This document shows, piece after piece, positions 17 through 11,065 of a stretch of 64,000 nt of DNA. Source of the DNA: a phage. The stretch lies in the sequence record PZ452611.1. One strand, 5' to 3'. The notes under the pieces are model-generated. The model worked only from the letters and a program-made list of their open reading frames with translations. It ran no database searches and had not been told where the DNA came from. A program made the translations under genes and the position numbers. The number at the start of each line of letters is the position of its first letter. The stretch's first letter is position 1.

Positions 17-361
17 ATGTCCACACTGTGGCGAAAACCTGATTACCGTTTTCATCCTTCGGATTATGGTGGGTATTTACCGGAGGATGATGTAAACCCC
101 TGGTTTCCTGAATTTATAGCTCCACGTGATGCCTATCCAAAAATAACTTGCGGCTGGATAGGCAATGGATTTATAATCCCGGCCACAAAACCTGTCCCGC
201 AAATAGTTGACGCGGTTAGCGGGTATTCCATGCAACACGCCAAGCTGGGTGGAAAGAGTGCAAGAACGAAGATGATCCGAAGCCTCACGCCACGTGGCTG
301 GGCAAAAGCCGTATTCTTAGCAAACGAGCCTGTAGTAAGGAGCAGAATTAATGGGAAGTAA
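17..361 (+). CDS. hypothetical protein
   Basis: 114-aa ORF; ATG at 17 after AGGGG; stop overlaps start of next gene (ATGGGAAGTAA); no motif recognised. Confidence 0.4.
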   Translation: MSTLWRKPDYRFHPSDYGGYLPEDDVNPWFPEFIAPRDAYPKITCGWIGNGFIIPATKPVPQIVDAVSGYSMQHAKLGGKSARTKMIRSLTPRGWAKAVFLANEPVVRSRINGK

Positions 362-2429
362 ATTTATGGCATCTGCATACAACCGTTTCGGTGAGCCAAA
401 CCCGAAAGCAACTAAGTATAAAAGTGGGGGAAGTGTGAAACGAGACTATCGTGATGAAAAAGAGGTTGAAACTGTAGAGACTGTTTTAGAAAATACTAAA
501 ATCGTCCCTGTCCCACAACAAAATATCGGTCTGATGGCTGCACAATATTTTGGTGTGCGATCAGCATTGTCCCAAGAAGACGGTGTGACAGTTACTGCAA
601 CATATTTCCCATATTACGACCGCTACGGGAATCTGTCCGGTTTCAAAAAGCGTGACTGGACGATCCCCAAAGAGCAACGTGGGCACTTTACGACGGTTGG
701 GATCGTAAAGGCTAACTCCCAAATGTTTGGGCAAAAGCTGTGTGCATCTTCTAACAACCGTAAGCAGATTAACGTTTGTGAGGGGGAAGGCGATGTTATT
801 GCAGCATGGCAGGCTGCATATCAGATACAAGTAAAAGGGATTCTCACCAACGCTAAAGCCCCGGCAAAGGTGAAACAGTGGGCTAAAGAGGTCCAGGACG
901 GGATCGATGCAGTTATCAACGGGGGTGATCTGGCAGGAAAACCCTGCCTGCCTTTTGTTGGAATTAACTGTGGATGTGCAAACGCAGTAGATACTTTTGC
1001 AAACAATGAGAAATTTATCCGTAGCTACGGAACAGTGGTCCTTGCAATGGACAACGATGCAGCTAACGAGGTAGAGAAGCAAAAACACGTTATCAAAGGT
1101 GTTGAAGCCACACATAATATCGCGGCATTTTTGATGGCGGATAACGTTTACCACGTGGAATACCCCAGTGAGGTAAACGACCCTGACGGTGTAAAAGATA
1201 TCCGTGACATGCTGAAGGCTAAAAAGCTGGAAGATATTGTCAACATGTTCCGTCACCCAGTCAAATATGTGCCCGATGCTGTATCTGATTTAGAAGACTT
1301 CTCCATTGAATCTCTTCGTAAGAAGACTTCTAATGGCGTAGATATCAGCGCGGAGTTCCCTAAATTGCAGAAGATGCTGAAAGGACTCCACAAAGGCACC
1401 TTGATGATGCTGACAGGCCCATCTGGCGGTGGTAAAACAACTGTAGCCAAGAAACTAGAACACTGCATTGCAAAATACTTGATGGATCCGACATGCCCTA
1501 AAGCCGATGATTATGAAGAGGATGATCGCCTGTGTCTGATTCACCTTGAAGAGGACCCTGAGGAAGCAATTAACTCTCTATACGCCAACCAGTTGGGGTT
1601 TGATGTTAAAGAGTTTGTTGAAGACCCTAGTCAGTTCCTGACTGATCAGGAGCATGCTGAGATTCACCAATCTTGGGCCAAGGCTGGAAAAATCAAAGTG
1701 TTCAAGCATTTTGGGTCTATTCCTGTAGATGAGTTGATCACTAAGCTTAAACAAATGGTGTGTCTGTATCACTGCCGTTACATTGTGCTGGATCACCTGT
1801 CCATGGTAATTTCAGGGCTTAATGTTAAGGATGAGCGCAAAGAACTTGACATGGCTATGACGCAACTAGCCGCGTTCTGCAAGCAGTTTAATGTATTTAT
1901 CTTGGTGATCGCTCACCTGAAACGCATAGAGATTGTGCCTCCAAAGGACAAGGATGGGAATCCGTTACCTTTCTGGTATCCTGTACGAAAAGAGAACCTT
2001 CGGGGTAGTGCCGGATTGGAGCAACTTAGCTGGGTAGTTGTTGGGGTGGAGGCAGAAGAGATGGTGGATCGTTCCCGTGGACGTGTCCGACTGGTAGGTC
2101 TTAAAAACCGCCCAGCAAAAACGTTAGGCATTGCGGATACCTTAGTTATGGATCCCCACACAGGTAAGTTCCATGATGCCAGCAACTGGTACTGGGACAA
2201 AGAAATGCAGATGTTCACAGACGGCGAAGGTGGGGAGGTTGTTTGGAGACCTCAAGCTATGTTTGAGGATCAAGGGCACGCAGTTGTAGAAACACCTGTA
2301 GGTAGGGTTGTGGCTGATAAGGTTGTAACTCCTACTGTTAACCCTGTTGACACACAAGAAGACCTCCCGTATGATGATCCGTCCTCTGACCATGTTCCCG
2401 GTTTTGAGGATGATGAAACACCTTTTTAA
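351..2429 (+). CDS. DNA primase/helicase (TOPRIM primase domain fused to DnaB/T7 gp4-like helicase)
   Basis: RBS AAGGAG 8 nt upstream; TOPRIM motifs VCEGEGD and LAMDNDAANE; Walker A LTGPSGGGKTTVAKK; helicase-type C-terminal half; no N-terminal Cys4 zinc finger seen. Confidence 0.85.
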   Translation: MGSKFMASAYNRFGEPNPKATKYKSGGSVKRDYRDEKEVETVETVLENTKIVPVPQQNIGLMAAQYFGVRSALSQEDGVTVTATYFPYYDRYGNLSGFKKRDWTIPKEQRGHFTTVGIVKANSQMFGQKLCASSNNRKQINVCEGEGDVIAAWQAAYQIQVKGILTNAKAPAKVKQWAKEVQDGIDAVINGGDLAGKPCLPFVGINCGCANAVDTFANNEKFIRSYGTVVLAMDNDAANEVEKQKHVIKGVEATHNIAAFLMADNVYHVEYPSEVNDPDGVKDIRDMLKAKKLEDIVNMFRHPVKYVPDAVSDLEDFSIESLRKKTSNGVDISAEFPKLQKMLKGLHKGTLMMLTGPSGGGKTTVAKKLEHCIAKYLMDPTCPKADDYEEDDRLCLIHLEEDPEEAINSLYANQLGFDVKEFVEDPSQFLTDQEHAEIHQSWAKAGKIKVFKHFGSIPVDELITKLKQMVCLYHCRYIVLDHLSMVISGLNVKDERKELDMAMTQLAAFCKQFNVFILVIAHLKRIEIVPPKDKDGNPLPFWYPVRKENLRGSAGLEQLSWVVVGVEAEEMVDRSRGRVRLVGLKNRPAKTLGIADTLVMDPHTGKFHDASNWYWDKEMQMFTDGEGGEVVWRPQAMFEDQGHAVVETPVGRVVADKVVTPTVNPVDTQEDLPYDDPSSDHVPGFEDDETPF

Positions 2430-2487: not shown

Positions 2488-4911
2488 ATGAGCATGTGGT
2501 CTTTCGATTTTGAGTCATCCGGTTTGCTGGAAGACCCAGATCTTTATTATCACTGCGGCCTGTTTAAAGAGTTGAATAAGAACCGTTTTATGCTGTTCCT
2601 TCCTCTGAATGACCGCACACACTACTCCGAGGAGGATATAGAGAAGGCTAAGAACTTTATTCTGGCAAAGAAAACTCTTTATAAGGATTTTGAAGTTCGC
2701 ATAGCAGATTTTTCAGAGTTGGAAGGTTGGCTTACAGGCAATTCTGACTGGTCACCCACAGCTTTGAACTGCCACAACTGCTACAGCTACGACTTTATGC
2801 TGATGGAGAGATTGTCCGGTATTCATTTTGATATGTTCCGTGATCCTAAGTGCATGGGGACTATCAACGACCACCAGGTTAATCTGTTTGATACGTTGGC
2901 GATGAGCCGAATCTTGTGGCCTGATCGCCCTTTACCAAAAGGTTGTCCGGACTCTGTATTCAACCCGGTTACTAAGAAAATGCAGCCTGTTGGTCCTCAC
3001 GGCCTTATGGCATGGGGCTACGCCCTTGGTAACCAGAAAGTTCAAATTGATGACTGGCGCGATCTTCCGTTGTGGAAGTATGTGGATCGTGTATTCGAGG
3101 ACGTTATCATCCAGGAGCTGCTCTGGAAAGAGCTGGTAGCGGAATCAAAAGGTGTATTCTACGGCAAATCTGACATGCAGAACTTTATGTACGATCCAGC
3201 CAAAGAGAAGCCGAAAGGGTTCAAGAAGATCACCTGGAAGAACGCATTACGTCGAGGCATGCTGCAGCACTTCCTGATGGAGCTGCAGGCCCGTCAGGGT
3301 GTATACTTCGACATAGATGGAGCTATTGCTTTACGTGACCGTTGCGATGCGTGGATGAAAGAAATCGCTGATCGTGTTGAACCACAACTACCTTTAAAAG
3401 AGCTGTCAATGTCTCAGCGGCCCAAGTTCCCTGAAAAGCCGTTTAACCAAGACGGGACAATCTCTAATAATGGTTGGAAATGGTTAAAAGATAAGCTTGG
3501 CTATCCTGTAGACATGAGTGCTTTAGAGTTCAAAGCCCCGCCTAAGCGAGCATTTACCTCTACAGGAGATGTCAGCAAGATGGGGATAAAATGGTGTGAA
3601 GAGATGGGCTGCAAAGACCCCGATAAGATGGCTGATTTCTTGAGAGGCTATATTAAGGGCACCTCCACACCACAACCCTTACCTAAAGAGCTGATGGATC
3701 AGGCAATAAGTGATCTGCAGCAGAAGCGAATGCCTGACTGCAAGATACCTATGAAAATCAGCAATCAGGACGACATCAAGCGATACCTAATCAGTGCTGG
3801 TTGGCTCCCAACAATGTGGAGAACTAAAGATGTAACTAAAGACAGCAAGAAGAAAGCTTTACCTGATGCAGATGTTGATGCACGAGTATATGCATATATG
3901 GACGAGCTTTTGGAGTCAGAGTATTGTGACCTAATTATCAACTTCTGGAACAAAACTGATGCTAAGTTCCAGACAACCGTGCACAAGTTCCGAAGCTTTC
4001 CTAACTCCGAAAGGATTAAAAAGGAAGTATTCGGGAAAATACGTAGAAAAGCCAGGGCACTTATTACTTCTCCGCAACTGAAAGATACGTTTGGACACCT
4101 GTGTCCGAATCTTGAAAAATTGAACGGAGAGATGGCTAAAGATATCGTCTTGTGGTTATCATTGCGAAACCGCAGATCGGTCCTTGATCCAATCAAGGAG
4201 GATAAGGTTGATACTGGTCTTCTTAATCACCCACGTTTGAAGATTGACCATAAGCTTCCTGCTAAAAGCTCTGGATTAACAAACACTTCCAGACAGAAAC
4301 ACAGTATTTGTGCAAACATGCCTAAACCATCTCCTAAAGTGGTTATGGGTAAAGAGATGCGTAGTCTGTGGGGTGTTCCTCCGGGATACTTTGAGATCGG
4401 TATTGACGGGTCCAACTTAGAGCAGCTTATCGGGGCTTGGGGTGCCTTTGAGTTCGACAACGGCTTGTATTATGATGTTGTAAGTAACGGAGACGCACAC
4501 CAAAACAATGCTGAGGCATATACAAAAGTAGCAGGCAGAGAGGTGTCCCGTAACGACGGTAAACCTATCACGTATGGGGTTATGTACGGGGCACAAAAAG
4601 ATAAAGTTGCAGATATGCTGGACATCTCCCCAGAGTTGGGACAAAGGGTAATCGATGCACTCTGGGATGCCAACCCAGGTCTTAAGGGGCGCAAAGAGGA
4701 TCTGGAGAAATTCTGGGAAGCAACAGGTAAGAAGTTTATCTACTCTTTTGATGGTCATGCTATCTGGACCCGATCTAAACACTCTTTACTTAATGCATAC
4801 CAACAAAATGGCGGTGCATCGTTGTGTGACTTAGTTGGAATACTCATGCACCACCAGATGGTGAAGCGTGGGTGGTACGATGAAGGTGTTCGTCGTATTA
4901 TTTATTACCAT
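2488..4911 (+). CDS. DNA polymerase, family A (T7 gp5-like), exon 1: 3'-5' exo domain plus polymerase motifs A and B
   Basis: RBS AAGGAGA; exo I motif FDFESSG; motif A EIGIDGSNLEQL...FEFDNG (T7 GADASGLELR...FDNG); motif B ITYGVMYGAQ; frame stops right after His of motif C (IIYYH-K-stop). Confidence 0.85.
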
Positions 4912-5187
4912 AAATAACATTGTGGCTTCATAGAGTAATCTATGTCGAATAACCTCTTTAACTGCGGGAAGCCTAAACCTTATGGCAAGGTAATCCGCAA
5001 CGAAGCGCTCAAAAGAGCGAACGCTCAGAGGCCATTCCGAAAGGAAGTAGACCAGCAAGTGCGGTCGAAATGGGAGGATTCCTGTGGTTGCTTATCATAG
5101 GAATATGAGATGGTCCGATCCTACGTGAAAACGTATGGCTATGCACGTAATGGTGCGGGGTAGCTTAACGACCTACCTGAACTATTG
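4912..5187 (+). ncRNA. putative group I self-splicing intron (ORF-less) interrupting the DNA polymerase gene
   Basis: 276-nt insert exactly within motif C; follows a U (4911) and ends with G (5187); GUGG 4922-4925 can pair with exon CCAU (P1); P/Q/R/S-like elements aactgcgggaag (4960-4971), aatccgcaac (4992-5001), gtagaccagc, gagatggtcc; stops in polymerase frame. Confidence 0.55.
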
Positions 5188-8354: not shown

Positions 8355-8720
8355 ATGGAACAAATGAACGATCAAGCGTCGGTTGCGATGAACGAGCAAG
8401 AACAACCTCAAGAATTTTTCTTAGGGTTAAGTAAAGATCAAGTGTCTCTTCTGCTAGTGCTTTCTTCTTTCATGGGAAGACTTCAGGAGCTCACACAACA
8501 GCCAGAGGCTGAACAATTATTCCAAGCTTTGCGTGAAGAAGAAAAATATCGTCGTTTGGACTATGCCTTAGGTTGGGTAGCTCAACAACGGGATATGCTG
8601 ATGGCCCTCTCTGGGACCACAAGTTTTGCAATGGGCCTGTTGGCTCAAGTTCAGGACAAATTAATTCAAGCAGGGTTCGCACACACGGCAAGCACTAACG
8701 AAGAACAAGGAGACAAATAA
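8355..8720 (+). CDS. hypothetical protein
   Basis: RBS GGAGA; 121 aa; stop overlaps next start. Confidence 0.45.
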   Translation: MEQMNDQASVAMNEQEQPQEFFLGLSKDQVSLLLVLSSFMGRLQELTQQPEAEQLFQALREEEKYRRLDYALGWVAQQRDMLMALSGTTSFAMGLLAQVQDKLIQAGFAHTASTNEEQGDK

Positions 8721-9991
8721 TGAGCGTTATTCAACAATTCGCTAACCCAATGAATCCGCGTGAAACTGTTTTACTGGCTCACGGCATGATTAAACGTGTT
8801 AGCATCAAGCCTATCAAAGGTGCTGATCCTACAACAGGTATTAAAACCACTGTGTGGCAAGGTAAGAAAATTGAATCCAGCCACACCATCTCTTTACTGA
8901 TTTCTGAACTGGATTCCTCTGATAACCTGCTTCAAGGTGGTGAAGAGGTCTGGATCAGCATGGGTGATAAGCTGCTTAAACCAGGTCATCAAGACTCTGT
9001 CTCTGTTAAGATTGATGACAAGTGGGAAACCGTAACGCCAGGATGGATCGTAAATATCCCTTTGAAGGCAAACGAGCATAACGGTAAGACCTATTACAAA
9101 GGCTCACTGGCTAAGATGGTTAAGCTGGGCGCAGGAGAGGCTCCAGCAGCGACTCAGCAGCAAAAACAGCAACAAGGTGCACAATCACAAGGCCAGAAGC
9201 AGAAACCTCAGCAGAATGCCAATCAGGACGTTTTACGCATCTATGGCGATGTGACTCAGATTGTTGGCAACGTGGTTACTGTTAATGACCACAAGATTGG
9301 CGAAGGTGCCATGGTTGTCACTGATGAGCAGCTTAAAGACCTGGTGGTAGGTGGTCGTGTTGCAGCCATTGTTGACAAAGACACTGGAAACATTATCAGT
9401 GGTTTCAAAGCCTATCCACCTAAGGCAGAGAACGGCACTCAAGGCTCTGGTGGCAAGCGTAAATCCTCTTACGACCCTATCGGTGTGGAAACGGGGCATA
9501 GCATCAATGCGTTGCAAATCATCCTGGATCGCGGGTTTAAGGTAGACGACCCACTAGGAGTGGCTAAAACACTGCACGTAGTCACCATTGAGCTTAAGAA
9601 AGAGTATGCTCAAGCCACCAACCGAACTGAAGATGAAGTAGGTGCCAGTGTCGGTAATGCGGTGTTGAACGCTTGTCGCCGTATTGACAAGAAAACGAAA
9701 GTTGATGATTTTGCAGCGGCAATTACTGCAGAAGCAAAAGATGTCTTGACTAATCTGGCTGAGCCGTTGTACGATTGGATCAAGAACGGTGCTGGGTCAA
9801 CCGACCATCAAGAACCTCAGGCTGCCAAACAGGAAGCAGCTCCACAGCAAAACACTGTAGACGCTCCTCCTGTAAATGATGAGGAAGATGACCCGATGGA
9901 TCAGAATCCGGCGCAGTATGACTTCTGTGATGACATACCTTTCGCTCCGGTAGGTTTGCAATATGGCAAAAGTAGAATCCACGCATTGTAA
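8720..9991 (+). CDS. putative ssDNA-binding protein (SSB-like acidic tail)
   Basis: RBS AAGGAGA; Gln-rich linker; acidic C-terminal region with DDIPF (E. coli SSB ends DDDIPF), here followed by 15 extra residues; located in replication module. Confidence 0.4.
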
Positions 9992-10586
9992 GAGGTGCAT
10001 CAAGTGCGGGGAGGTGAAAGACCTCTCCGAGTTCTACAAACACCAAAAGATGTCTGACGGTCATCTTAATAAGTGCAAAGAGTGTTGCAAGAAGGCCAGT
10101 AGGGAGGCTGACCAATTTTCCTACGACTCTTCAGAAAAAGGTGTAATACGCGTGCTGTACAAGGCTCAAAAGTGCAACAGCAAGCAAAGAGGTCACCCGC
10201 CTCCGACTTACACCAAAAAAGAGTTTAAGGAGTGGCTATACCTAAACGGTTACAAAGAGTTGTATGATCAATGGGTAGCCAGCGGATACGACAAAAGGAA
10301 AAAGCCTTCTTGTGATAGGATAGATGATTTCAAAGGGTACTCTTTTGATAATATCCGTTTAACTACCTGGGGAGAAAATAAAGACAAGCAGACGGAGGAT
10401 ATTCTGTTGCATAGAAGCACCAGCGGTAGACGGTGTAAAAATGTAAGGAGACTGGACATGAATGGCAACGTTCTTAAAGAATGGGTATCCCACAATTCTT
10501 GTAGAAGAGAAACCGGAATATGTGTTGATTACTACATTCATGAAAAAATTCCAGCTCCCGATGGATACCTCTATGAATACTTTTAG
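9963..10586 (+). CDS. putative HNH-family (homing) endonuclease-like protein, possibly degenerate
   Basis: N-terminal zinc finger [19 protein letters not shown]...[10 protein letters not shown]; C-terminal [20 protein letters not shown] resembles HNH_3-type motif but lacks the His; overlaps 3' end of SSB-like gene. Confidence 0.4.
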
Positions 10587-10648
10587 CACCTAACTGACAT
10601 AGCCCTGCCCGAAAGGGTGGGGCATTTTTGTATAAGGAGATCTGAAAA

Positions 10649-11065
10649 ATGACATTAGAAGATATCATTGTTAAACCTGAGAACTATGACCAATACAACC
10701 TGTCAACTCAATCTGTAGACCTCGGATGCGCCACAGTCAGTGCATGGCTGGTTAACGGAAAAGAGCTTGACGAGTGCCTGGAAGCACACATGTCGGTGAA
10801 TAAATTTCTTGATGAAAATACCCACTGGCTAGAGGGTGCAGGAGTATATGCTTCATGGTTGGAGAGTATGGGATTCGACTACCAATCTGAAGAGGGGTGG
10901 TGGAGCTATTTAGCTATCTGCCCAGAGACGCTGCAATGCTTCATGAAATATTCTGAAGATTTGGAGTACCGGGCGGTGGTTGATAGTGCCATTGCCCGTT
11001 ATAGCCGTAAACCTTTTTCCCACGACATTAAAACTGTGGAAGAGTTTGTTGAAGTTTTCTGTTGA
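10649..11065 (+). CDS. hypothetical protein
   Basis: RBS TAAGGAGA; 138 aa. Confidence 0.45.
   Translation: MTLEDIIVKPENYDQYNLSTQSVDLGCATVSAWLVNGKELDECLEAHMSVNKFLDENTHWLEGAGVYASWLESMGFDYQSEEGWWSYLAICPETLQCFMKYSEDLEYRAVVDSAIARYSRKPFSHDIKTVEEFVEVFC

What the first reader, a model, noticed from the sequence alone, without database searches (positions are those of the whole stretch)
8720..10586. SSB-like protein carries an internal DDIPF motif where an HNH-like endonuclease gene overlaps its 3' end
The 423-aa protein has a Gln-rich linker and an acidic tail with DDIPF, the partner-binding C-terminus of bacterial SSB. Here it is followed by 15 extra residues encoded by sequence overlapping the start of the HNH-like gene (9963). 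One reading is that a free-standing homing-endonuclease gene inserted at the 3' end of the SSB gene and displaced the original stop. The SSB assignment itself rests only on the linker and tail.
Basis: inference. Interest (0 to 1): 0.5.

Follow-up and report, generated by a model that had tools for sequence, protein, structure and literature searches.

The report
Homing endonuclease at capped SSB-like tail
In coliphage rV5 a mobile homing-endonuclease gene sits exactly at the end of the phage's SSB-like replication gene, and the 15 extra residues after DDIPF are not read-through junk but a conserved, so far undescribed "cap" found on many phage SSB tails.

Summary
The window is phage rV5. ORF 8720-9991 (gp209, 423 aa) carries DDIPF at residues 404-408, followed by [18 protein letters not shown] 9963-10586 (gp208) overlaps it by 29 nt.

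gp208 is a PacI/I-HmuI-like HNH protein that behaves as a free-standing homing endonuclease. Among about 112 near-identical phages, 62 have an empty site (protein ends DDIPF-stop). 18 carry the gene 9 nt after that stop, and 32 have the rV5 arrangement. Its 10 closest relatives elsewhere all sit behind genes with ..IPF tails; five of seven tested are Pfam SSB.

The extension is not accidental. The same 15-residue cap occurs on HNH-free orthologues, canonical SSBs, a primase-helicase and prophage SSBs in 411 E. coli genomes. Its function is unknown.

The parts
8720..9991 (+). rV5 gp209 (ORF 214), a 423-aa SSB-like protein of PHROG 4477
   Evidence: ORF and translation. 100% identity to the rV5 record. 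PHROG 4477 E=4.8e-174, with the profile ending at residue 408. No Pfam hit.
8720..9139 (+). N-terminal all-beta domain (residues 1-140), predicted OB fold
9143..9223 (+). Gln-rich disordered linker (residues 142-168)
   Evidence: pLDDT below 50. The sequence itself.
9227..9427 (+). Small beta domain (residues 170-236), absent from the shorter phapecoctavirus-type relatives
9476..9784 (+). Four-helix bundle (residues 253-355), the best conserved part of the family
   Evidence: pLDDT 85-95. Conserved GVETGH..N and [12 protein letters not shown] motifs.
9794..9943 (+). Acidic disordered tail (residues 359-408) ending in the SSB-Ct-like DFCDDIPF; DDIPF is nt 9929-9943
   Evidence: Relatives end AFDDDIPF*, EFDDSIPF* or DFDDDIPF*.
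9910..9937 (+). Cluster of substitutions between HNH-plus and HNH-minus alleles just upstream of the insertion point; candidate target or co-conversion tract
   Evidence: 7 differences in 18 nt (rV5 vs FFH2) and 9 in 19 nt (FFH2 vs bov22_2), against roughly one per 60-70 nt elsewhere in the gene.
9944..9991 (+). 15-residue cap [15 protein letters not shown] plus stop, a member of a conserved post-DDIPF cap family
9963..10586 (+). rV5 gp208 (ORF 213), a 207-aa PacI/I-HmuI-like HNH homing-endonuclease-type protein
   Evidence: PHROG 1035 E=7e-41. Family profile against PDB: PacI E=0.009, I-HmuI E=0.068. AF2 pLDDT 92. Foldseek top two hits I-HmuI (prob 0.99) and PacI (prob 0.98). Present/absent polymorphism.
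9996..10085 (+). N-terminal four-Cys zinc ribbon of gp208 (C12, C15, C38, C41, all invariant)
   Evidence: The same module heads the classical-HNH enzymes that sit behind other DDIPF tails.
10008..10028 (+). Hairpin GGGGAGGT-GAAAG-ACCTCTCC inside the first zinc-knuckle codons
   Evidence: MFE -16.7 kcal/mol for the 57-nt segment. An equivalent stem with compensatory changes occurs in Mt1B1_P17, morffagbaw, PsgM04F, SalP219 and KE23; it is absent in the bov22_2 type. Function not tested.
10305..10379 (+). Putative beta-beta-alpha-metal core of gp208 (residues 115-139: [25 protein letters not shown])
   Evidence: Invariant P115, S116, R119, Y126, L133 and N139. Aligns to PacI VDRSDSFEGYSPQNARLACFICN.
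10434..10580 (+). C-terminal I-HmuI/NUMOD-like DNA-binding region of gp208
   Evidence: Relatives hit PF22083 or PF07453 at the equivalent position. The profile aligns to I-HmuI residues 74-171.
10602..10633 (+). Intrinsic terminator shared by the gp209/gp208 unit; in empty-site phages it directly follows gp209
351..2429 (+). Primase-helicase (rv5_gp225), which also ends in an acidic ...GFEDDETPF* tail; the T7-like DNA polymerase follows at 2488-4917
   Evidence: In Seunavirus KE23 and SalP219 the orthologue ends DMDDDTPF+APIGLQYANHAIYVL* with an overlapping zinc-ribbon HNH gene.

Best explanation
gp209 is most likely rV5's functional single-strand-DNA-binding protein. It is non-canonical: an OB fold, a small beta domain and a four-helix bundle, joined by disordered linkers, ending in an acidic tail that copies the bacterial SSB tip (DFxDDIPF).

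gp208 is a free-standing homing endonuclease gene of a PacI/I-HmuI-like HNH clade. That clade lives specifically at the 3' ends of genes with DD-x-PF tails. It lies exactly between the last sense codon of gp209 and that gene's terminator. It is transcribed with gp209 and is probably translated from an ATG with a weak AGG Shine-Dalgarno 8 nt upstream (inferred).

In mixed infections it presumably cuts HNH-less genomes near the tail-coding DNA. Repair then copies the gene together with flanking tail codons (inferred from the allele pattern, not shown).

The 15 residues after DDIPF belong to a widespread, selected C-terminal cap of phage SSB tails: A-P-[IV]-[GT]-L-x-[YF]-x4-[IL]-[HY]-x-[LIF]-COOH. 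In the rV5 allele the cap travelled with, or was retained beside, the endonuclease gene, whose start codon lies in cap codons 7-8.

The cap turns the normally C-terminal Phe into an internal residue. It should therefore change which partners the tail binds. Its actual function is unknown.
For: Identity and alleles.
- The window is rV5.
- Junction-specific searches of about 112 Vequintavirus records give 62 empty sites, 18 with a short tail plus HNH, and 32 of the rV5 type.
- The insertion boundaries are exact...CCN TTY | cassette | TAA CATCTAGTTAAC ATAGCCC (terminator).
- Substitutions cluster at 9910-9937.

HNH nature.
- PHROG 1035.
- Family profile against PDB: PacI E=0.009 and I-HmuI E=0.068.
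- Model pLDDT 92, and the only two confident Foldseek hits are I-HmuI and PacI.
- NUMOD-like domains in relatives.
- No intron: no Rfam hit at E<=1, and the insert is almost all ORF.

Site specificity.
- The 10 closest IMG/VR relatives of gp208 (at least 46% identity), retrieved without reference to neighbours, all lie directly after a gene ending ..[DE][DE](x)IPF. Five of seven tested are Pfam SSB (E 1e-21 to 1e-41).
- Zinc-ribbon HNH genes also follow the capped tails of a canonical SSB, phapecoctavirus SSB-like proteins and the Seunavirus primase-helicase. The primase-helicase shows the same three states.

SSB-like nature.
- Disordered linkers and tail.
- No canonical SSB anywhere in the rV5 genome by profile or phmmer.
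- None is listed among the replication proteins in the rV5 paper (PMC3606486).

Cap.
- Present in about 30 of 70 family clusters retrieved independently of the tail.
- Present without HNH in PVP-SE1, L035, L038 and L249.
- Over 100 IMG/VR SSBs carry related caps with unrelated downstream genes.
- One such SSB gene is found in 411 of 5426 complete E. coli genomes, where PGAP annotates it as ssb.
- Leu is kept through 5 different codons, and Ser through both AGY and TCA.
- pN/pS is about 0.49 for cap codons 8-15 in the SSB frame, against 0.8-1.0 for the same bases in the HNH frame. The result is the same in the HNH-free subset.
Against: - No biochemical result exists for either protein.
- gp208 lacks the canonical catalytic His. 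The family's invariant residues are R119, Y126, N130 and N139. Activity therefore rests on analogy with PacI's tyrosine mechanism, which I recall from the PacI structure paper and did not check here.
- The direction of events is not resolved. Empty sites could be deletions rather than naive targets.
- Three HNH-free capped alleles are plainly HNH-deletion remnants (L052, L248, L252). Some cap-only alleles are therefore scars of former occupancy.
- The pN/pS value for cap codons 1-7 is inflated, because the search pattern fixed those residues.
- A capped Phe conflicts with the established need for a free C-terminal carboxylate in SSB-Ct binding. It is thus unclear whether the DDIPF in rV5 gp209 still works as an SSB tip.
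Confidence: 0.7

Rival explanations
1. One reading: the 15 residues are accidental read-through, created when the endonuclease gene landed on the stop codon. They have no function of their own.
For: The closest HNH-free relatives end at DDIPF-stop, and the PHROG profile ends at residue 408. The extension overlaps the HNH start. The AF2 model gives it no structure.
Against: The same peptide family and length occur on HNH-free orthologues and on unrelated SSBs and a helicase. Synonymous-type codon variation is in the SSB frame, not the HNH frame. An HNH-positive allele keeps the original stop.
Confidence: 0.07
2. The direction is reversed. The capped tail with its endonuclease gene is the older state in this family. 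The 'empty' DDIPF-stop alleles arose by loss of both, through deletion or recombination with short-tailed relatives. On this view rV5 shows retention rather than a recent invasion.
For: Cap-plus-HNH alleles occur at 100%, 76% and 44% protein identity to rV5 gp209. Deletion remnants show that HNH loss is frequent. The bov22_2 cassette is flanked by TTC-TGA and TTC-TAA, a microhomology that could mediate precise excision.
Against: All recognisable deletion remnants keep the cap. None regenerates DDIPF-stop. Short tails are the majority at every divergence level. The short-tail-plus-HNH allele shows the gene can occupy an uncapped site.
Confidence: 0.25
3. gp209 is not the replicative SSB. It is another OB-fold factor, for example a RecO-like mediator or a decoy, that uses an SSB-tip mimic to compete with host SSB for host partner proteins.
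Against: rV5 has no other SSB candidate. The gene lies in the early/replication arm, near the primase-helicase and polymerase. The HNH clade that targets it otherwise targets bona fide SSB genes. Some database records already call the orthologues SSB.
Confidence: 0.15
4. gp208 is a domesticated or inactive HNH-like DNA-binding protein, for example a regulator of the gp209 operon, rather than an active homing nuclease.
For: There is no conserved catalytic His. The matches to solved nucleases are weak (E 0.009-0.07). Domesticated phage endonucleases are known (for example PMC8096241, listed).
Against: It is dispensable: 62 of 112 near-identical phages lack it. The boundaries are precise, remnants decay, and the nearest relatives share a strict site. 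These are hallmarks of a selfish element. The residues that align with the PacI core motif are invariant.
Confidence: 0.12

Closest known systems
Bacterial SSB (Pfam PF00436) and its SSB-Ct tip (..DFDDDIPF-COOH), which recruits partner proteins
   Same: An OB fold at the N-terminus (fold level), a disordered low-complexity linker, and an acidic tail whose last eight residues in sister phages equal the E. coli tip.
   Different: There is no sequence homology to the SSB OB domain. Two extra folded domains are present. In rV5 the Phe is internal, capped by 15 residues, whereas canonical binding uses the free C-terminal carboxylate (established SSB-Ct literature, from memory).
Phage T7 gp2.5 SSB and gp4 primase-helicase, whose acidic C-terminal tails end in Phe and both dock on the T7 DNA polymerase
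   Same: rV5 has a T7-like family A polymerase. Both its primase-helicase (..EDDETPF*) and its SSB-like protein carry acidic ..PF tails. The same cap/HNH cassette is found on either gene in the subfamily.
I-HmuI (SPO1 intron HNH homing endonuclease, 1u3e) and PacI (HNH restriction enzyme, 3ldy)
   Same: The zinc-ribbon and beta-beta-alpha-metal region aligns with PacI. The core and C-terminal NUMOD-like DNA-binding region align with I-HmuI.
   Different: The gene is free-standing, not intron-encoded. There is no catalytic His. Its target preference is the 3' end of SSB-type genes.
Free-standing homing endonucleases of T-even phages (Seg and Mob families), which spread with co-conversion of flanking markers
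   Same: An intergenic or gene-end position in a replication gene cluster, present/absent polymorphism among close relatives, and sequence divergence concentrated next to the insertion. The review PMC2988022 is listed.
   Different: Here the start codon lies inside the upstream gene's coding sequence, in a conserved tail module. The same clade recurs behind one protein motif in unrelated genes.
HK620 SSB, whose C-terminal NDYPPF is required to recruit the phage annealase Sak4 (PMC5928155)
   Same: It shows that phage SSB tails ending in ..PF-COOH recruit phage partners.
   Different: That tail is uncapped. No study found here addresses residues beyond the PF.

Membership tests
Bacterial-type SSB (PF00436) | SSB OB domain recognisable by sequence profile | tested here: not met
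   Pfam gives no hit at E<=1. hhalign of the family's N-terminal domain against seven canonical SSB OB domains gives probability 0.5%.
Bacterial-type SSB (PF00436) | OB fold of the SSB/PriB/RPA type | tested here: met
Bacterial-type SSB (PF00436) | Disordered linker followed by an acidic tip ending ..D-D-x-P-F at the free C-terminus | tested here: inconclusive
   The linker and the DFCDDIPF motif are present. In rV5 the Phe is followed by 15 residues. In 80 of about 112 sister phages it is the true C-terminus.
Bacterial-type SSB (PF00436) | Cooperative ssDNA binding and oligomerisation | not testable with these tools
   Needs purified protein.
Free-standing HNH homing endonuclease | Beta-beta-alpha-metal nuclease core | tested here: met
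   Family profile against PDB: PacI E=0.009, I-HmuI E=0.068. Foldseek probabilities 0.98-0.99 for the same two entries and nothing else. Pfam's HNH models do not hit.
Free-standing HNH homing endonuclease | Catalytic His general base | tested here: not met
   There is no invariant His in the core. The invariant residues are R119, Y126 and N139. PacI is a precedent for a Tyr-based variant (from memory).
Free-standing HNH homing endonuclease | Present/absent polymorphism with exact boundaries among near-identical genomes | tested here: met
   62 empty, 18 plus 32 occupied sites. Boundaries.
Free-standing HNH homing endonuclease | Not embedded in an intron or intein | tested here: met
   No Rfam family at E<=1 in 9500-11000. 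The roughly 640-nt insert is 624 nt of ORF.
Free-standing HNH homing endonuclease | Cleavage of the HEG-less allele and super-Mendelian inheritance | not testable with these tools
   Needs a cleavage assay and phage crosses.
Post-DDIPF 15-residue cap of phage SSB tails (defined here) | Exactly 14-17 residues after ..PF, with the pattern A-P-[IVM]-[GT]-L-x-[YF]-x4-[ILM]-[HY]-x-[LIFV]-COOH | tested here: met
   [15 protein letters not shown] fits 10 of 10 constrained positions. Compare APVGLPFPRHAIHAV, APVTLPFPRHAIHAI and APIGLQYGRNFLHCF.
T7-type replisome with shared acidic C-terminal docking tails | Both SSB and primase-helicase end in acidic tails with a terminal aromatic residue, alongside a family A polymerase | tested here: met
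   Window 351-2429 ends EDDETPF*. The polymerase at 2488-4917 hits DNA_pol_A and is annotated T7-like. Docking itself was not tested.

The most novel reading that the evidence does not exclude
The 15-residue cap is a functional module that masks or re-purposes the SSB tip. It might switch the tail from host SSB-partner binding to another partner, or make it conditionally exposed. It would be spread between unrelated replisome genes (canonical SSB, gp209-type SSB-like proteins, primase-helicase) by an HNH homing-endonuclease clade that uses DNA encoding the DD-x-PF tail as a near-universal homing site.
Probability: 0.35. Interest if true: 0.75.

Novelty: new variant of a known kind. Interest (0 to 1): 0.55.

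Why it matters
The SSB C-terminal tip is a textbook protein-interaction hub. Its function is thought to need the free terminal Phe. I found a conserved cap that buries that Phe on rV5 gp209, many phage SSBs, a primase-helicase and prophage SSBs in about 8% of complete E. coli genomes. No paper in the searchable library mentions it. If the cap is functional, it points to an unstudied way for phages to tune or hide their SSB tails.

The endonuclease side is more ordinary. It still gives a clean natural three-allele system (empty, occupied, occupied plus cap) in easily grown coliphages. It also defines a clade whose target is a protein motif shared by otherwise unrelated genes. Finally, it assigns a likely SSB role to a 'hypothetical' protein conserved across Vequintavirinae and Stephanstirmvirinae.

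Tried and rejected
- **Group I intron or intein around the HNH gene.** Rejected. There is no Rfam hit at E<=1, and the insert is almost entirely ORF.
- **Sequence-level SSB assignment.** Pfam gives nothing. Only fold-level evidence remains.
- **Pfam HNH models** on gp208 and on the morffagbaw, KE23 and PsgM04F enzymes give no hits. The assignment had to come from the family profile against PDB and from the predicted structure.
- **Codon-level selection test.** For cap codons 1-7 the low pN/pS is partly an artefact, because the DNA search pattern fixed those residues. I rely instead on codons 8-15, on the frame comparison and on the pattern-independent protein set.
- **Programmed frameshift making an SSB-HNH fusion.** The HNH frame is +1. 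I considered this, but there is no slippery site in 9944-9991 and nothing supports it. I did not pursue it.
- **'Cap is always an HNH scar'.** Three clear deletion remnants fit this. More than 100 capped SSBs with unrelated neighbours do not.
- **Literature.** Full-text searches for the peptide strings and for phage SSB tail extensions found nothing relevant.
- **Structure of the cap.** The AF2 monomer model leaves it disordered. Complex prediction was not possible with the tools.
- **BFVD fold search.** It returned mostly uncharacterised orthologues and only weak ssDNA-binding or DUF2815 hits.
Full report
**What is there.** The window is Escherichia phage rV5 (V5), reverse strand of DQ832317/NC_011041 (100% identity). 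The + strand ORF 8720-9991 is rv5_gp209 (ORF 214, annotated 'hypothetical'). It ends ...[10 protein letters not shown](408)[15 protein letters not shown]. ORF 9963-10586 is rv5_gp208 (ORF 213, annotated 'endonuclease'). It lies in the +1 frame and overlaps gp209 by 29 nt, with its ATG inside the CAA-TAT-GGC codons. An intrinsic terminator follows at 10602-10623. The one correction is that the Gln-rich linker (residues 142-168) separates the first two folded domains and is not adjacent to the tail.

**Is gp209 an SSB?** Sequence methods say nothing. There is no Pfam hit. PHROG 4477 has 'unknown function'. hhalign of the family's N-terminal domain against canonical SSB OB domains gives probability 0.5%. 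An AlphaFold2 model built on 37 relatives shows five regions:
- an all-beta domain (residues 1-140);
- a disordered Q-rich linker;
- a small beta domain (170-236);
- a confident four-helix bundle (253-355);
- a disordered acidic tail (359-423).

**Is gp208 a homing endonuclease?** It matches PHROG 1035 ('endonuclease VII', E=7e-41). A profile of 41 relatives hits PacI (E=0.009) and I-HmuI (E=0.068) in PDB. The PacI match covers the motif vDRiDdykgYS.dN.rL..w..N. The I-HmuI match covers the core and the C-terminal DNA-binding part. The AF2 model (pLDDT 92) has exactly these two entries as its only confident Foldseek hits. Relatives carry I-HmuI-NUMOD-like or NUMOD1 domains. Four Cys residues of an N-terminal zinc ribbon are invariant. 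No His is conserved in the core. The invariant core residues are R119, Y126 and N139, a PacI-like variant.

**Population evidence for mobility.** Junction-specific megablast searches of Vequintavirus records give three alleles:

| Allele | Records |
|---|---|
| Empty site | 62 |
| HNH gene 9 nt after an intact DDSIPF-stop (bov22_2 type) | 18 |
| rV5 arrangement | 32 |

The cassette sits exactly between the Phe codon and the sequence TAA-CATCTAGTTAAC-terminator. Substitutions between alleles pile up in the 30 nt before the junction, at 9910-9937. No intron model fits.

**Site specificity.** I retrieved IMG/VR relatives of gp208 by an internal motif only. The ten closest (at least 46% identity) all lie immediately downstream of a gene ending ..[DE][DE](x)IPF. 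More distant relatives lie in other contexts. Five of seven upstream genes tested are Pfam SSB, with E from 1e-21 to 1e-41. Enzymes with the same zinc-ribbon N-terminus but a classical Cys/His HNH core also follow DDIPF-type tails. The examples are a canonical SSB (morffagbaw), phapecoctavirus SSB-like proteins (Mt1B1_P17, PsgM04F) and the Seunavirus primase-helicase (KE23, SalP219). At that helicase, close relatives again show a short ..DDDTPF-stop, a cap plus HNH, or a cap alone. rV5's own primase-helicase (351-2429) ends ..EDDETPF* and precedes a T7-like polymerase. This recalls the shared acidic tails of T7 gp4 and gp2.5 (knowledge from memory).

**The 15 extra residues.**
- **HNH-free orthologues have them.** PVP-SE1 gp038 ends DFDDDIPFAPIGLQYGRNFIHCI* in front of a terminator. 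L035, L038 and L249 are similar.
- **They are common in the family.** Among 70 family clusters retrieved by overall similarity, about 30 end ..PF + A-P-[IV]-G-L-Q-Y-x4-[IL]-[HY]-x-[LIF]. The rest end at ..PF. Both states occur at every divergence level.
- **Canonical SSBs and the helicase carry the same cap.** A pattern scan found it on SSBs of about 160 aa and on a 691-aa primase-helicase in viral and metagenomic contigs. Roughly a third have a zinc-ribbon HNH gene immediately downstream.
- **Related caps are widespread.** It showed recurrent cap families on SSB-sized proteins with unrelated downstream genes:
  - a 15-residue family (APVTLPFPRHAIHAI, APVGLPFPRHAIHAV, APIGLMYPRHLINVI...), to which rV5's [15 protein letters not shown] clearly belongs;
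  - a 9-residue family (APLHHLAGA);
  - a 12-residue family (ADPYRGARSLLI).
- **Prophages carry them too.** One such SSB gene occurs in 411 of 5426 complete E. coli genomes, where PGAP annotates it simply as ssb.

**Selection on the cap.** In 30 distinct cap-coding sequences, Gly uses all four codons, Leu uses five, and Ser is kept through both AGY and TCA. For cap codons 8-15, pN/pS is about 0.49 in the SSB frame. The same nucleotides read in the HNH frame give 0.8-1.0. The HNH-free subset gives the same result. The still lower value for codons 1-7 is partly forced by my search pattern, so I do not lean on it. The pattern-independent protein set shows the same invariance.

**How the pieces fit.** The cap is an older, selected tail module of phage SSB-type proteins. 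The HNH clade inserts at the stop codon of DD-x-PF-tailed genes, whether capped or not. Where the tail is capped, the enzyme uses an ATG inside cap codons 7-8, or 13-14 in the MPCK.. variants. That gives it an unconstrained 8-residue leader. Most family members start directly at the first Cys.

Because the start codon lies in the cap, cap and gene move together in gene conversion. This explains why rV5 differs from its short-tailed sisters by cap plus gene. Loss of the gene leaves the cap behind, as three remnants show:
- L052 keeps about 60 nt of the 5' end of the gene.
- L248 (83% identical to gp209) keeps about 25 nt.
- L252 fuses the first 30 codons to the last 9.

Which state is ancestral in the rV5 lineage is not settled.

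**What is shown and what is inferred.** Shown: the coordinates, the allele states and their counts, the exact junctions, the fold similarities, the distribution of the cap and its codon pattern, and the neighbourhood preference of the HNH clade. Inferred: ssDNA binding by gp209, nuclease activity and homing by gp208, co-conversion as the route by which rV5 acquired the cap, and any function of the cap.

Canonical SSB-Ct recognition uses the free carboxylate of the last Phe (established literature, from memory). The cap should therefore weaken host-partner binding unless it is removed. It also ends in its own hydrophobic [IL]-[HY]-x-[LIF]-COOH. Masking, partner switching or regulated exposure are the hypotheses worth testing.

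**Verdict.** The finding is real. The endonuclease part is a well-supported but ordinary new member of the free-standing HNH homing endonucleases, with an unusually clear site preference. The extension is the more interesting part. It is a conserved cap on SSB tips for which I found no description in the searchable literature.

Noticed in passing
L088-L206 (IMG/VR contigs); E. coli genomes H176-H181: Many phage and prophage SSBs continue past FDDDIPF with short conserved caps in at least three families. These are the 15-residue AP[VI][GT]L[PQM][FY][PG]xHxI[HY]x[ILV], the 9-residue AP[LM]HHLAGx and the 12-residue A[DN]PYRGAxxL[LA][IV]. One capped SSB gene is in 411 of 5426 complete E. coli genomes, next to a phage anti-RecBCD gene. 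No paper in the library mentions these peptides.
   Followed up: partly
window 351-2429 (tail codons 2406-2426): rV5's primase-helicase also ends in an acidic ..GFEDDETPF* tail, just upstream of the T7-like polymerase (2488-4917). In Seunavirus the orthologue carries the same 15-residue cap and an overlapping zinc-ribbon HNH gene. Close relatives show short, cap-only and cap-plus-HNH states.
   Followed up: partly
window 10008-10028: A stable hairpin (GGGGAGGT-GAAAG-ACCTCTCC) lies in the first zinc-knuckle codons of gp208. It is about 45 nt after the start codon and about 17 nt after the gp209 stop. Equivalent stems with compensatory changes occur in five other 'leader-type' HNH genes, but not in the bov22_2 allele. 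It could be an attenuator or translational control element.
   Followed up: partly
L052, L248, L252 (also possibly L081): These are independent internal deletions of the HNH gene. Each leaves the cap and a short 5' (and in L252 also 3') fragment of the gene. They are snapshots of the decay phase of the homing-endonuclease cycle.
   Followed up: yes
L004-L008, L251 versus window 9963-10586: Two different nuclease bodies share the same N-terminal zinc-ribbon module ([23 protein letters not shown]) at the same kind of site. One is PacI-like (rV5 type, about 200 aa). The other is a classical CxxC..HH..H HNH (about 146-164 aa). This suggests domain shuffling, or that the ribbon is the site-recognition module.
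   Followed up: no
L017, L019, L078: A canonical SSB ends ..[22 protein letters not shown]. It is followed by an overlapping 97-aa ORF that keeps the HNH leader (MEKAESTHY...) and then continues as an unrelated protein. The endonuclease body appears to have been replaced while the overlap was kept.
   Followed up: no
window 8355-8720: gp210 (121 aa, PHROG 7310, unknown function) ends with its stop overlapping the gp209 start (TAATG). It is conserved directly upstream of gp209 orthologues in all relatives examined. It may be a translationally coupled partner.
   Followed up: no
search hits (MG0656xx records): Sixteen to twenty GenBank records named 'Campylobacter phage' (host C. jejuni) are 97-98% identical to rV5-like coliphages across this locus. 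This looks like mislabelling or contamination in that submission series.
   Followed up: no
L045-L047 (metagenome contigs): An HNH-free allele ends DFCDDIPF*. It combines the rV5-type upstream polymorphisms, including the odd Cys, with the empty-site downstream sequence. It is a recombinant whose crossover lies within the last two codons.
   Followed up: partly
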